Source: a virus (Duplodnaviria > Heunggongvirae > Uroviricota > Caudoviricetes). Taken from it: DNA of 39,745 bases. Position numbers and translations under genes: made by a program. Location of the stretch: the IMG/VR virus record IMGVR_UViG_2579778884_000013. One strand, written 5' to 3'. The notes below the pieces were generated by a model. That model ran no database searches. It was not told where the DNA came from and saw only the letters and a program-made list of their open reading frames with translations. Positions 30,934 through 33,711 of the stretch are shown one piece after another (position 1 is the first letter of the stretch; each line of letters begins with the position of its first letter).

Positions 30934-30994
30934 CTTTACCCTCGCTTATCCACATAACTTATTGATTACATTGATAACTAAAAAGATCGTCGAT

Positions 30995-31456: not shown

Positions 31457-32257
31457 TTACTTGATAAATCCTGCCGCCTTTCCCCGCCTGTATTCCTCCA
31501 TCAGCCACTGCGCCGGTGTTATTCCCCCAAGGGTGGCGGCGTTAGGCATGCACCCGAAACTTCGCCCTGGTGGATGGTAAACGTCTCTCCCTGTGTCCGG
31601 AGGTGTACTCATGGGCTCTCGCTTTGCCTGTATGCTGATCACCGGATCGGGTATCTGCTGTCCGGAAGCTACCTTTTTCGCCCAATCATCGAGCAGCCTG
31701 CGCGCGTGTTTCTCAACCTCAATCTCGCTAAGCTGGCGCTGATACATTGCACGGCGGGTATCACATACGACCCAGTACATAACCGGATGTCGCCACGGGA
31801 ATCTTTCGGGACCACCAGGATATAAACTTTTTTCCTTGCTGTACCGGTGAAACTCCGCCATCACATCGTCAATGGTGACGCCAAGAACCATCTTGCTGTC
31901 TTTGCACCACTTGATAAATTGCCCTGGAGACGGCCAGAACGGAGATTCACTGGCGCGGGCGTGGCGCATACCAGCAGAAACCTGTTCACGGGTTCGGATC
32001 CCCCCTTCGGCAAACGCAGCAATCCACTGCTGTTTTGCAGCAACTTCCTGCTCTGGCGTCTTCAGGTTGGTTACCACTGCCGCCGGAAACAGTTGTTTCA
32101 GCTGTTTAAAAAGGGCATCAACAAGCCTCTCTGCTGACATGTTCACCACATTGTCATTGTTGACGTACTGATGCTCATAACCTGACATGCGAGAAAGGGC
32201 TTCTCCGTCACGGTTTTGTATCTCGGTAAAAACGTTGTTCACAAGAAATCCTCCCAT
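31457..32257 (-). CDS. Replication protein P-like (DnaB helicase loader)
   Basis: PSPGQFIKWCKD matches lambda P PSPGQFVAWCRE; start overlaps O-like gene stop. Confidence 0.75.
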   Translation of the reverse strand: MGGFLVNNVFTEIQNRDGEALSRMSGYEHQYVNNDNVVNMSAERLVDALFKQLKQLFPAAVVTNLKTPEQEVAAKQQWIAAFAEGGIRTREQVSAGMRHARASESPFWPSPGQFIKWCKDSKMVLGVTIDDVMAEFHRYSKEKSLYPGGPERFPWRHPVMYWVVCDTRRAMYQRQLSEIEVEKHARRLLDDWAKKVASGQQIPDPVISIQAKREPMSTPPDTGRDVYHPPGRSFGCMPNAATLGGITPAQWLMEEYRRGKAAGFIK

Positions 32258-33078
32258 GCTTCAGGGCTGTTCCAGTGCGGAACGTTGTTATCAGGTAATG
32301 TTGATTGCTTCTGTCTGCTAATCTGCAGCCGCCTTGCCAGCTTCTGCTCCCACTGTGCCTGATGGTATGCCTTACCCTCAGCCATCCAGTAAATTCTGAA
32401 CTCTGCAAGTTCCTGTGCCGTTGGCAGACTGTCCAGGTAGATCCCCTGCAATGAGCTTTTCCGAAGAAAGTCATCTGATGGCTGCCATTGTTCATGCATG
32501 ACAAATTTGCCTAATTGCCCTGGCCCACCAGGAGGAACAAAGTTATTCATCACGGCGTTGTTTGCTCCGGGGTCATGAGGCACAGAATCCCCGCTTTTTG
32601 TCCTGCTCTCCCTCTCTTGGTTAAATGACTGGTTATATGACTGGTTCTGGATCCCGTTTTTGGGATCATTCAACATCCCGTTTTTGGGATCATTCAACAT
32701 CCCGTTTTTGGGATCATTCAACATCCCGTTTTTGGGTATATTCCCGTTTTCGGGTATATTCCCGTTTTCGGGTTCATTGCCCCCCTCCCGGTTGCCTTTA
32801 ATGTTCCCGTTTTTGGTTATATTAAGAGAGAAAACCCGCACTCTTTTTGTCGCTCCCTTTCTCTCTCCGGTATCTGAAATAATCCCCATTTTCATGAGCG
32901 ATATAAGCCCGGCCTGCACGGTTTTTTTATTCAGGCAAGTGTCTTTAACGAGGCGTTCTATGCTGGGGTAGCAGAGGTTATATTCATCGGCTCTGTCAGC
33001 CATCGAGAGCAGTATGAGCTTTAATGATGAGCTACCTGGATCTGTCTCCCAAGCCCAATCTGTTGCATGTCTGCTCAT
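32239..33078 (-). CDS. Replication initiator (lambda O-like), ori iterons inside coding sequence
   Basis: Winged-helix-like N-terminus; internal peptide repeats PKNGMLND x3 encoded by DNA iterons; GGAG RBS; followed by P-like gene. Confidence 0.7.
   Translation of the reverse strand: MSRHATDWAWETDPGSSSLKLILLSMADRADEYNLCYPSIERLVKDTCLNKKTVQAGLISLMKMGIISDTGERKGATKRVRVFSLNITKNGNIKGNREGGNEPENGNIPENGNIPKNGMLNDPKNGMLNDPKNGMLNDPKNGIQNQSYNQSFNQERESRTKSGDSVPHDPGANNAVMNNFVPPGGPGQLGKFVMHEQWQPSDDFLRKSSLQGIYLDSLPTAQELAEFRIYWMAEGKAYHQAQWEQKLARRLQISRQKQSTLPDNNVPHWNSPEAWEDFL
32651..32820. repeat. Phage origin of replication: array of about 7 palindromic iterons (core ATCCCGTTTTTGGGAT) followed by AT-rich segment
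   Basis: Three identical 24-bp units at 32651, 32675, 32699, then degenerate 18-bp units to 32776 and one at about 32805; each contains inverted repeat ATCCC/GGGAT. Confidence 0.75.
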
Positions 33079-33093
33079 GATTAATCTCCGCTA

Positions 33094-33294
33094 TCAGCTT
33101 GAATGTTGTGGGGAGGAATTAATCATGATCTGCTTAATCTCTGCCCTGATGCGACGGTTTGACTCCATGGTGCACTCAACACAGTGTCCGTTGTAAACCC
33201 AGCGTTCACTGTCATGTCCGTGCTTACATGGTTTTCCGGTGTAGTAGCGTTTAAGTCCGCGCTTTGCGGCATCAATACGTGTAATGATTTCCAT
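33094..33294 (-). CDS. Small Cys/His-rich protein at cII-equivalent position, function unknown
   Basis: ATG 33294 with AGGG RBS; pattern CKHGH...HCVEC. Confidence 0.4.
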   Translation of the reverse strand: MEIITRIDAAKRGLKRYYTGKPCKHGHDSERWVYNGHCVECTMESNRRIRAEIKQIMINSSPQHSS

Positions 33295-33396
33295 GGTAAG
33301 CCCTGTTATTAGTATTGGGATTACGGTTATTTTGTGCTGACACAAAAAAAAGATCAACCAGATTTGGTTTTTTATTACCTTTGAGGTACGAATAGA

Positions 33397-33444: not shown

Positions 33445-33675
33445 TCATGAGTAGAAGAAGTATGCCAGTTCCGCTTTTGAGCGCAGCCATTGTCTTGTTT
33501 TACAGGCTTTAAAAAGCCCATTCATCAATACCTTACCTGGCATTTTGCGCTTACCTGTTAAGTGAGTCTGGATATAGTGACTCGTCGTTCCGGCTTCCTG
33601 TGCGAAGGCTTCACGCTCATCCGGAGTAAGTGCAAGCCAGTGCTTTTTGAAATCGAAATGTCCGTTATCGCTCAT
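33445..33675 (-). CDS. Cro-like HTH regulator
   Basis: Divergent from repressor gene; HTH segment REAFAQEAGTTSHYIQTHLTGKRKMPGK; first gene of - strand early operon. Confidence 0.6.
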   Translation of the reverse strand: MSDNGHFDFKKHWLALTPDEREAFAQEAGTTSHYIQTHLTGKRKMPGKVLMNGLFKACKTRQWLRSKAELAYFFYS

Positions 33676-33711
33676 AGCTATTGCCTGATATTTATTTCAG
33701 ATAATAAATAT

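What the first reader, a model, noticed from the sequence alone, without database searches (positions are those of the whole stretch)
32651..32835. Origin of replication inside the O-like gene: seven palindromic iterons plus AT-rich tract
Three identical 24-bp units and about four shorter degenerate units, each built around the inverted repeat ATCCC-N6-GGGAT, are followed by an AT-rich stretch at about 32815-32835. They lie in frame inside the initiator gene and encode a PKNGMLND peptide repeat linking its two domains. This matches the lambda arrangement in which O binds iterons within its own coding sequence.
Basis: partly seen in the sequence, partly recalled or inferred. Interest (0 to 1): 0.5.

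Follow-up and report, generated by a model that had tools for sequence, protein, structure and literature searches.

The report
Phage replication origin inside initiator gene
Seven short repeated DNA sites inside the replication-initiator gene of a phiV10-like E. coli phage are almost certainly the phage's replication origin, built on the lambda plan with a different initiator family; this is an expected kind of feature, not yet annotated or tested for this phage group.

Summary
The repeats are real. The 12-mer CCCRAAAACGGG occurs 7 times (6 exact, 1 mismatch), only at 32653-32817, against 0.32 expected. The units lie in frame in the minus-strand gene 32239-33078, between an HTH_36 winged-helix domain and a DnaT-like domain. 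A lambda-P-type helicase-loader gene follows.

The constraint is on DNA, not on the peptide. In 12 distinct initiator lineages from Vibrio, Edwardsiella, Acinetobacter, Burkholderia and E. coli phages, the motif YCCRAAAAYGG recurs at the same linker position in all three reading frames. It is about 500-fold denser there than in the rest of the loci. In the P[KE]NG copies the proline codon is CCC in 21/21 cases.

Edwardsiella phage GF-2 fuses this N-terminal-plus-repeat module to a lambda-O C-terminal domain (62% identity), as a natural swap for lambda's ori module.

So the lambda-like origin reading is well supported by comparison, though not shown experimentally. The gene is not a Pfam Phage_rep_O member. 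The claimed AT-rich tract is modest and lies on the opposite side from lambda's. A better conserved flank is a second tandem repeat (AACCAGTCATWT, 32618-32646) just after the last iteron. Verdict: new member of a known kind, moderate interest.

The parts
32239..33078 (-). Replication initiator gene (279 aa): N-terminal winged helix (HTH_36), iteron-encoded linker, C-terminal DnaT-like domain
   Evidence: ORF list. Pfam HTH_36 E=2e-10 and DnaT E=1e-15. PHROG 1032 'replication initiation protein' E=5e-112. 93-96% nt identity to phiV10-group phages, with no origin feature listed in the phiV10 stretch retrieved.
32824..33078 (-). Part of the gene coding for the N-terminal winged-helix DNA-binding domain (aa 1-85), the presumed iteron reader
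   Evidence: AlphaFold2 with a 53-sequence alignment gives mean pLDDT 89 and topology H-H-H-H-beta-beta. Residues 90-100, where the iteron-encoded linker begins, fall below 50. Foldseek finds generic winged-helix DNA binders, including plasmid Rep N-terminal domains, all weak.
32806..32817 (-). Iteron 1 (nearest the N-terminal domain), degenerate core ACCAAAAACGGG
   Evidence: One-mismatch match. It lies 45 nt from the next unit and encodes TKNG.
32761..32772 (-). Iteron 2, core CCCGAAAACGGG (18-bp unit)
32743..32754 (-). Iteron 3, core CCCGAAAACGGG (18-bp unit)
32725..32736 (-). Iteron 4, core CCCAAAAACGGG (arms ATCCC / GGGTA on the + strand)
32699..32714 (-). Iteron 5, full dyad ATCCC-N6-GGGAT (24-bp unit)
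32675..32690 (-). Iteron 6, full dyad ATCCC-N6-GGGAT (24-bp unit)
32651..32666 (-). Iteron 7 (last in gene direction), full dyad ATCCC-N6-GGGAT
32618..32646 (-). Second tandem repeat, AACCAGTCATAT x2.4 on the gene strand, directly after the last iteron. Candidate unwinding element or second binding site.
   Evidence: TRF. It lies inside the second least stable 40-bp stretch of the gene, 32612-32652. A repeat of period 9-14 nt with a GAAC(C) core sits at the same place in relatives, sometimes in shifting frames.
32796..32836 (.).
   Evidence: GC 0.286 over 21 nt, 5.7th percentile of the window. Least stable 40-bp stretch of the gene. Less consistently the minimum in relatives than the downstream flank.
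32299..32505 (-). Part of the gene coding for the C-terminal DnaT-like domain (aa 192-260)
   Evidence: Pfam PF17948. E about 1e-20 to solved E. coli DnaT C-terminal domain chains 4ou6, 6aep, 2ru8, 9zbt.
31457..32257 (-). Lambda-P-type helicase loader gene immediately downstream. The ORF finder takes the first ATG; the phiV10 annotation starts about 15 nt later and overlaps the initiator stop.
   Evidence: Pfam Phage_lambda_P E=1.5e-56. PHROG 109 'P-like helicase loader'. phiV10 annotation.

Best explanation
The window is a phiV10-like (Uetakevirus) temperate E. coli phage. Its replication origin lies inside its initiator gene, on the lambda plan.

Inferred mechanism:
1. Dimers of the initiator's N-terminal winged-helix domain bind the 6-7 dyad-symmetric sites (core CCC-R-AAAA-C-GGG, spaced 18 and 24 bp). 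This builds an O-some-like complex on A-tract-rich DNA.
2. The duplex opens in a flanking low-stability stretch. The family-conserved 12-bp repeats just after the last iteron (32612-32652) are the most likely place. The AT-richer stretch on the other side (32796-32836) is the alternative.
3. The C-terminal DnaT-like domain recruits the P-like loader with host DnaB, and possibly holds single-stranded DNA.

Because the sites are embedded in a disordered linker, the unit number can drift (5-9 or more) as long as the frame is kept.

Shown here: the sequence features, the DNA-level conservation, the modular co-inheritance with the N-terminal domain, and the gene context. Inferred: binding, unwinding site and origin activity.
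For: (1) The motif is unique to this spot and far above chance.

(2) The constraint is on DNA. Thirteen representative loci were counted; two of them are the same phage, AP22, so they give 12 distinct lineages (E. coli, Vibrio, Edwardsiella, Acinetobacter and Burkholderia phages). The 11-mer YCCRAAAAYGG occurs 37 times in the 240-nt linker windows (11.9 per kb) against once in the remaining ~43 kb (0.023 per kb, both strands scanned). It is always on the coding strand, in frames 0, 1 and 2 (26, 9 and 2 copies). Burkholderia phage units are spaced 17 nt.

(3) Synonymous sites are fixed. Within P[KE]NG, Pro is CCC 21/21 against 45/173 elsewhere in the same genes (p=1e-11). Lys is AAA 13/13 and Asn is AAC 20/21.

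(4) Family-wide, the N-terminal domain finds 3581 50%-identity clusters at E<=1e-3. Of 123 full-length top representatives, 109 carry the motif's peptide 'shadows' (PKNG, xQKR, PKTx) in the linker. There are 378 in the linker against 11 elsewhere.

(5) The C-terminal domain varies while the N-terminal domain and repeats stay together: DnaT, Phg_2220_C, or no Pfam match. In phage GF-2 the C-terminal 144 aa are 62% identical to lambda O 156-299 (E=2e-67). There the module replaces exactly the lambda segment that carries ori.

(6) Lambda's annotated iterons (ATCCCTCAAAACGAGGGA and variants) share the TCCC...AAAAC...GGGA pattern. They sit in frames 0, 2, 2 and 1 of O, between its two domains. This layout is described in PMC7466680.

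(7) A P-type loader gene follows, and a cro-like and repressor-like pair lies upstream.

(8) Unit number varies among 78 near-identical loci and among E. coli prophage proteins (263-311 aa), always in frame. This parallels the 4 versus 6 iterons of lambda and Stx phages.

(9) The N-terminal model is a confident winged helix and the linker is disordered.
Against: - No experiment or replication-profile data were available; binding and origin firing are inferred by analogy.
- There is no strongly AT-rich tract like lambda's (GC 0.22 over 41 nt). The flanks here are 0.29-0.44 GC and not exceptional genome-wide.
- The initiator is not in Pfam Phage_rep_O, and my profile comparison with the lambda O N-terminus was not significant. 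Homology of the readers is therefore not established here, although PMC5509034 reports an HTH_36 match for lambda O by HHpred.
- The tandem copies within one gene are not independent, so the codon and count statistics overstate significance. The 12 lineages are the real sample size.
- In most close relatives two of the short units are degenerate (GGT, ACC). Not all seven sites need be functional.
Confidence: 0.8

Rival explanations
1. The repeats are initiator-binding sites with a mainly regulatory role, such as autoregulation of the operon, titration or handcuffing-type copy control, or exclusion of related phages. The site of strand opening and helicase loading would then lie elsewhere, for example in an AT-rich intergenic region.
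For: No pronounced AT-rich tract adjoins the array. Lower-GC intergenic stretches exist nearby at 33326-33369 and 33665-33700. Iterons of plasmids are known to serve both initiation and control (established knowledge). In Stx phages some extra iterons are bound only weakly yet matter for replication.
Against: The array plus the adjacent 12-mer repeats travel with the N-terminal domain into unrelated genomes, whatever lies upstream. In GF-2 the module replaces the lambda segment that contains ori itself. The two least stable stretches of the gene are exactly the two flanks of the array.
Confidence: 0.12
2. The repeat is selected at the protein level as a flexible low-complexity linker (PKNGMLND)n. 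The DNA palindromes would be a by-product of slippage-driven expansion with no DNA function.
For: The units are in frame and their number varies. The region is predicted disordered. In this particular window all seven copies are in frame 0.
Against: In relatives the same DNA motif occurs in all three frames, giving unrelated peptides (PKNG, TQKR, VPKTE), with 17-nt spacing in Burkholderia phages. Synonymous positions are fixed. The motif is conserved from Acinetobacter (gene GC 0.37) to Burkholderia (0.61) phages.
Confidence: 0.03
3. The sites are read by some other protein, such as a host nucleoid protein, SeqA at the GATC cluster, or another phage regulator, and not by the initiator's own N-terminal domain.
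For: Four GATC sites at 32650-32712 form the densest GATC cluster of the window. No binding data exist.
Against: The GATC is absent from the Vibrio and Burkholderia versions of the motif. The only gene that always accompanies the motif is the winged-helix domain encoded immediately upstream on the same DNA. The dyad symmetry fits a dimeric winged-helix reader.
Confidence: 0.05

Closest known systems
ori-lambda inside gene O of phage lambda (and P22, 933W, P27 relatives)
   Same: Several dyad-symmetric repeats lie inside the initiator ORF between an N-terminal DNA-binding domain and a C-terminal domain. The half-sites have the same flavour (lambda ATCCCTCAAAACGAGGGA; here ATCCCAAAAACGGGAT). The A-run is on the coding strand, and the repeats need not keep one reading frame. 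A P-type loader gene is next. The position downstream of a cro-like gene is the same. Iteron number varies between relatives, 4 versus 6 in lambda and Stx phages.
   Different: The initiator is HTH_36 + DnaT, not Phage_rep_O + O C-terminal domain. The sites are shorter (12-16 against 18-19 bp, arm spacing 6 against 9-10 nt) and more numerous. There is no 40-bp tract of about 78% AT after the last iteron; a 12-bp tandem repeat sits there instead.
DopC/DopE of Cellvibrionales and Oceanospirillales (Brezellec et al. 2017, PMC5509034)
   Same: The protein architecture is the same: HTH_36 N-terminus + DnaT C-terminal motif, paired with a lambda-P-like partner. The authors interpret the pair as derived from phage O and P.
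   Different: DopC is a resident chromosomal gene, and the authors report finding no iteron-like sequences in it. The phage gene here carries a full iteron array, as expected for the undomesticated form.
Edwardsiella phage GF-2 'replication protein O' (AP014629, ORF-62)
   Same: The N-terminal domain is of the same family (about 58% identity). Three perfect palindromic units GATCCCAAAATTGGGATT are followed by a 12-bp repeat at the same place.
   Different: Its C-terminal 144 aa are lambda-O type (62% identity to lambda O 156-299), not DnaT-like. This shows that the N-terminal-plus-repeat unit is an exchangeable module.
Iteron-type plasmid origins (e.g. RK2 oriV, pPS10, R6K gamma) with winged-helix Rep proteins
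   Same: Arrays of repeated initiator sites lie next to short tandem repeats where the duplex opens. Rep proteins can read one strand of those 13-mers (PMC4081077, seen by title and abstract only). The readers have a winged-helix fold; Foldseek lists staphylococcal plasmid Rep N-terminal domains among weak hits.
   Different: Plasmid iterons are normally outside the rep gene, are direct and not dyad repeats, and are accompanied by DnaA boxes. Here the sites are inside the gene and dyad-symmetric. The only DnaA box in the window is 1.7 kb away and at chance level.

Membership tests
Lambda-type phage origin (ori inside the initiator gene) | Three or more repeated sites with internal dyad symmetry inside the initiator ORF, between its two domains | tested here: met
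   Seven core copies at 32653-32817, between HTH_36 (aa 18-67) and DnaT (aa 192-260).
Lambda-type phage origin (ori inside the initiator gene) | The repeats are constrained as DNA, independently of the reading frame | tested here: met
   The motif is found in frames 0, 1 and 2 in relatives, is about 500-fold enriched in the linker, and has fixed synonymous sites. Lambda's iterons are in frames 0, 2, 2 and 1.
Lambda-type phage origin (ori inside the initiator gene) | Strongly AT-rich unwinding tract (about 40 bp) directly after the last iteron | tested here: not met
   Downstream flank: GC 0.44 over 41 nt and 0.34 over the 29-nt 12-mer repeat. Lambda: 0.22 over 41 nt. The flanks are only the locally least stable stretches of the gene.
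Lambda-type phage origin (ori inside the initiator gene) | Helicase-loader gene of the lambda P family immediately downstream | tested here: met
   PF06992 E=1.5e-56 for 31457-32257.
Lambda-type phage origin (ori inside the initiator gene) | The initiator binds the repeats, and the fragment supports replication | not testable with these tools
   Needs EMSA or footprinting and an ori-cloning assay. The only indirect hints are circular records carrying this module: 41-kb pHL15EC-2, and an 8.46-kb E. coli record with no other replication gene in its (incomplete) PLSDB gene table.
Phage_rep_O protein family (Pfam PF04492) | Significant match of the N-terminal domain to the Phage_rep_O profile | tested here: not met
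   Only HTH_36 and DnaT are reported for the window protein at E<=0.01. Lambda O itself matches PF04492 at 6e-36. hhalign of the N-terminal alignment against the lambda O N-terminus gives probability 6%.
HTH_36 + DnaT_C 'O-like' initiators (phage 'primosomal protein I', DopC-like) | N-terminal HTH_36 winged helix, C-terminal DnaT DNA-binding domain, adjacent P-like gene | tested here: met
   The architecture is described in PMC5509034.
Iteron plasmid origins (Rep_3 / RepA type) | Direct repeats outside the rep gene, with DnaA box(es) and AT-rich 13-mers | tested here: not met
   The repeats are inside the gene and dyad-symmetric. No DnaA box lies within 1.7 kb. No Rep_3 match was found.

The most novel reading that the evidence does not exclude
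The window shows one instance of a widespread, undescribed two-part origin signature that travels with one winged-helix module through thousands of phage and prophage initiator clusters in gamma- and beta-proteobacteria. The first part is an array of YCCRAAAAYGG dyads. The second is 2-4 tandem copies of a roughly 12-nt GAACC(A)-type unit, immediately downstream. In this reading the second repeat, not a generic AT-rich tract, is a sequence-specific opening or helicase-loading element. The conserved 'peptide motifs' of these proteins (PKNG, QKR, PKTE, QNQSLEPVIEP) would be translation shadows of DNA sites. Origins of this class could then be called from protein sequence alone.
Probability: 0.3. 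Interest if true: 0.55.

Novelty: new member of a known kind. Interest (0 to 1): 0.35.

Why it matters
It gives a concrete, testable origin for the phiV10 (Uetakevirus) group and for a prophage replication module present in 424 of 5426 complete E. coli genomes. No origin feature is listed in the phiV10 stretch retrieved here.

HTH_36-type replication modules also occur in Shiga-toxin phages (Eru5, 6, 8, 11, 13; PMC8951638), where replication type has been linked to virulence.

The frame-independence test separates 'DNA site' from 'peptide repeat' without experiments and can be reused for other initiator genes.

For phage engineering, including phiV10-based reporter phages, recoding or truncating this gene would probably destroy the origin.

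Tried and rejected
- The search for homologous proteins with the N-terminal alignment returned only truncated proteins of <=155 aa. They were useful only as an alignment for structure prediction.
- With the full protein, the 120 hits listed were all E. coli-group variants (Escherichia and close Enterobacteriaceae) at 88-99% identity.
- Single-sequence AlphaFold gave pLDDT 38 and was discarded.
- hhalign against the lambda O N-terminus was not significant, so I do not claim homology of the readers.
- Foldseek against the PDB gave only generic winged-helix hits (E about 1e-2, TM about 0.5).
- DnaA-box search found one site 1.7 kb away, below chance expectation.
- The promoter/terminator scan found nothing above shuffles. 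Its three 'terminators' in the array are inter-iteron hairpins on the antisense strand.
- In SPN1S (same genus, different N-terminal domain, same DnaT C-terminal domain) I looked for a different iteron set. I found only clusters of GTCCGC/GCGGAC hexamers, which are suggestive and not conclusive.
- Literature searches for phiV10 or epsilon15 with origin or iterons, for HTH_36 with phage replication, and for the motif sequence itself found no prior description. The library lacks many subscription-journal papers, including the original phiV10 and epsilon15 genome papers, so an earlier mention cannot be excluded.
- Small circular 'plasmid' records carrying a related module could be excised prophage fragments or assembly artefacts. 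I treat them as weak evidence only.

Full report
**What is there.** The region 32651-32835 lies inside a minus-strand ORF, 32239-33078 (279 aa). Tandem Repeats Finder reports a 24-bp unit x3.6 (32651-32736, 100% identical) and an 18-bp unit x2.8 (32724-32773). The shared core CCCRAAAACGGG (gene strand) occurs six times exactly and once with one mismatch. All copies lie between 32653 and 32817, and none occurs elsewhere in 39.7 kb. The expected count is 0.32, and none of 100 shuffles reaches 7. The full 5+5 dyad ATCCC-N6-GGGAT is present in three units only. The others keep CCC/GGG or CCCG/CGGG arms. The units are in frame and encode TKNG, PENG x2 and PKNG x4 (aa 88-142).

**Gene context.** The protein has a Pfam HTH_36 domain (aa 18-67) and a DnaT DNA-binding domain (aa 192-260). 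It gives no Phage_rep_O match. The C-terminal domain matches solved E. coli DnaT C-terminal structures at E about 1e-20. The next gene downstream (31457-32257) is a lambda-P-family loader at E=1.5e-56. Upstream lie a small ORF, a cro-like gene and a divergent repressor-like gene. The window as a whole is a phiV10-like Uetakevirus genome, 96-98% identical to phiV10, phiv142-3 and relatives. No origin feature is listed in the phiV10 stretch I retrieved, where the gene is called 'replication initiation protein'. The gene is found at >=90% identity in 424 of 5426 complete E. coli genomes, where it is annotated 'DnaT-like ssDNA-binding domain-containing protein'.

**DNA sites or a peptide repeat?** This was the key question. 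I collected relatives of the N-terminal domain from annotated phages and IMG/VR contigs. Every true relative, from Vibrio, Edwardsiella, Acinetobacter, Burkholderia and other E. coli phages, has copies of the same DNA motif just after the winged helix.
- The copies are not confined to one reading frame. CCCAAAAACGG is read as P-K-N-G, as T-Q-K-R, or as (V/D)-P-K-T-E. In Burkholderia phages the units are spaced 17 nt apart.
- I counted 13 representative loci, two of which are the same phage (AP22), giving 12 distinct lineages. The 11-mer YCCRAAAAYGG occurs 37 times in the 240-nt linker windows and once in the other ~43 kb (both strands scanned). It is always on the coding strand.
- Within P[KE]NG the proline codon is CCC in 21 of 21 cases, against 45 of 173 elsewhere in the same genes. 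Lys is always AAA, and Asn is AAC in 20 of 21.
- An exhaustive HMMER search with the N-terminal domain finds 3581 50%-identity clusters at E<=1e-3. Of 123 full-length top representatives, 109 carry the motif's translation products in the linker, 378 in the linker against 11 elsewhere.

A peptide-level explanation cannot account for this. The copies within one gene are not independent, so the 12 lineages, not the raw counts, are the real sample.

**Why an origin.**
- First, the layout is that of lambda. In NC_001416 the four annotated iterons sit in O between its two domains, in frames 0, 2, 2 and 1. They are ATCCCTCAAAACGAGGGA, ATCCCCTAAAACGAGGGA, ATCCCTCAAATTGGGGGA and ATCCCTCAAAACAGGGGG. A 41-nt tract of 22% GC follows. 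The same layout is described in PMC7466680. The half-sites here (TCCC...AAAAC...GGGA) look like lambda's with a shorter spacer.
- Second, the N-terminal domain and the repeats are inherited together, while the C-terminal domain changes: DnaT, Phg_2220_C, or none recognised.
- Third, in Edwardsiella phage GF-2 the C-terminal 144 residues are 62% identical to lambda O 156-299 (E=2e-67). Everything before that point is the module studied here. Nature has therefore swapped this module for exactly the lambda segment that carries ori-lambda, next to a P gene.
- Fourth, an AlphaFold model of aa 1-100 built on 53 sequences is a confident winged helix (pLDDT 89). Its confidence collapses where the repeat-encoded linker begins. 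That explains why the unit number can vary.
- Fifth, the unit number does vary. The 78 near-identical loci carry 5 to 9 units, and E. coli prophage proteins range from 263 to 311 aa, always in frame. This resembles the 4 versus 6 iterons of lambda and Stx phages.

**The AT-rich tract.** The stretch 32815-32835 has GC 0.286, which 5.7% of all 21-nt windows match or undercut. It overlaps the degenerate first unit. In gene orientation it lies upstream of the array, the opposite side from lambda's tract. By nearest-neighbour energy, the two least stable 40-bp stretches of the whole gene are the two flanks of the main array: 32796-32836 and 32612-32652. Across relatives, the downstream flank ranks among the three least stable stretches in 7 of 12 genes, and the upstream flank in 4 of 12.

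That downstream flank is the second tandem repeat (AACCAGTCATAT x2.4). Relatives have a repeat of period 9-14 nt with a GAAC(C) core at the same place:
- Vibrio H20: AGAACCAGTCATT x2.5
- L102: AGAACCACCCAAT x2.5
- Bcep176: GAACAGTAG x3.8
- GF-2: a 12-mer x3.4

The widely conserved peptide QNQSLEPVIEP is simply a 13+12-nt repeat read in shifting frames. I therefore consider 32612-32652 the better candidate for the opening or loading site. This is inference.

**Comparison with known systems.** The feature works like ori-lambda, but the initiator fails the Phage_rep_O membership test. Its architecture, HTH_36 + DnaT C-terminal motif with a P-like partner, is the one Brezellec et al. described for the domesticated bacterial pair DopC/DopE. 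They report finding no iterons in dopC (PMC5509034). HTH_36 proteins are also listed in several Shiga-toxin phage replication modules, without origin analysis (PMC8951638). I found no paper describing these iterons or the motif sequence. The library does not hold many subscription-journal papers, so an earlier mention cannot be ruled out.

**Verdict.** It is wrong or weak in three details: the family of the gene, the extent of the palindromes, and the role and side of the AT-rich tract. This is a new member of a known kind. It is of moderate interest because the module is common in E. coli prophages and the family-wide two-part signature appears undescribed.

Noticed in passing
window 32618-32646 (and L006, L007, L010, L096, L102, L103 just after their last iteron): A second tandem repeat (AACCAGTCATAT x2.4 on the gene strand) follows the iteron array. 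Its position is conserved across the family, with periods of 9-14 nt and a GAAC(C) core. It yields the conserved peptide QNQSLEPVIEP by frame-shifting translation. It is a candidate unwinding or second binding element.
   Followed up: partly
window 32650, 32664, 32688, 32712: Four GATC sites lie within 66 nt, created by the GGGATC arms of the iterons. This is the only place in the window with >=4 GATC in 80 nt. It could link the origin to Dam methylation or SeqA. The GATC is absent from the Vibrio and Burkholderia versions of the motif.
   Followed up: partly
window 32661-32728, + strand: Neighbouring iterons pair with each other (TGGGAT-N8-ATCCCG followed by a T-run) and score as three terminator-like hairpins on the strand antisense to the gene. 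This is probably a by-product of tandem palindromes, but it would block antisense transcription through the origin.
   Followed up: no
L011-L090 (IMG/VR) and proteins P0118-P0237: The iteron number is polymorphic among near-identical phages and prophages: 5 to 9 units among the IMG/VR loci, and initiator lengths of 263, 271, 277, 279, 287, 295 and 311 aa across both sets. The most common form has one long unit fewer than this window. The 12-bp repeat also varies (three copies in phiV10).
   Followed up: yes
L007 1501-2343 (Edwardsiella phage GF-2): A natural chimera: the HTH_36 N-terminal domain, three perfect 16-bp palindromes (ATCCCAAAATTGGGAT) and a 12-mer repeat are fused to a lambda-O C-terminal domain (62% identity, E=2e-67). 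The junction lies right after the repeats.
   Followed up: yes
L136 1102-1416 (Salmonella phage SPN1S initiator gene): SPN1S is in the same genus and has the same DnaT-like C-terminal domain, but an unrelated N-terminal part. It lacks the CCCRAAAACGG motif. Instead it has two clusters of GTCCGC/GCGGAC hexamers (10 of 12 occurrences in the locus), one at the equivalent linker position. This may be a different iteron set.
   Followed up: partly
L138 (NZ_CP148379.1, 8461-bp circular E. coli record) and L139 (41,027-bp circular pHL15EC-2): These circular extrachromosomal records carry this type of initiator/P pair. In the 8.46-kb record it is the only replication gene in the PLSDB gene table, which is incomplete. 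They may be autonomously replicating excised prophage pieces or assembly artefacts.
   Followed up: partly
window 30946-30954, + strand: The single perfect DnaA box TTATCCACA of the window lies 1.7 kb from the iterons. The count is below chance expectation (1 found, 3.7 expected).
   Followed up: yes
window 33094-33357, - strand: A small ORF between the cro-like gene and the initiator (87 aa as listed; 66 aa in the phiV10 annotation) matches PHROG 1081 of unknown function. It is conserved in epsilon15-like phages and contains CxxH/CxxC-like motifs.
   Followed up: no
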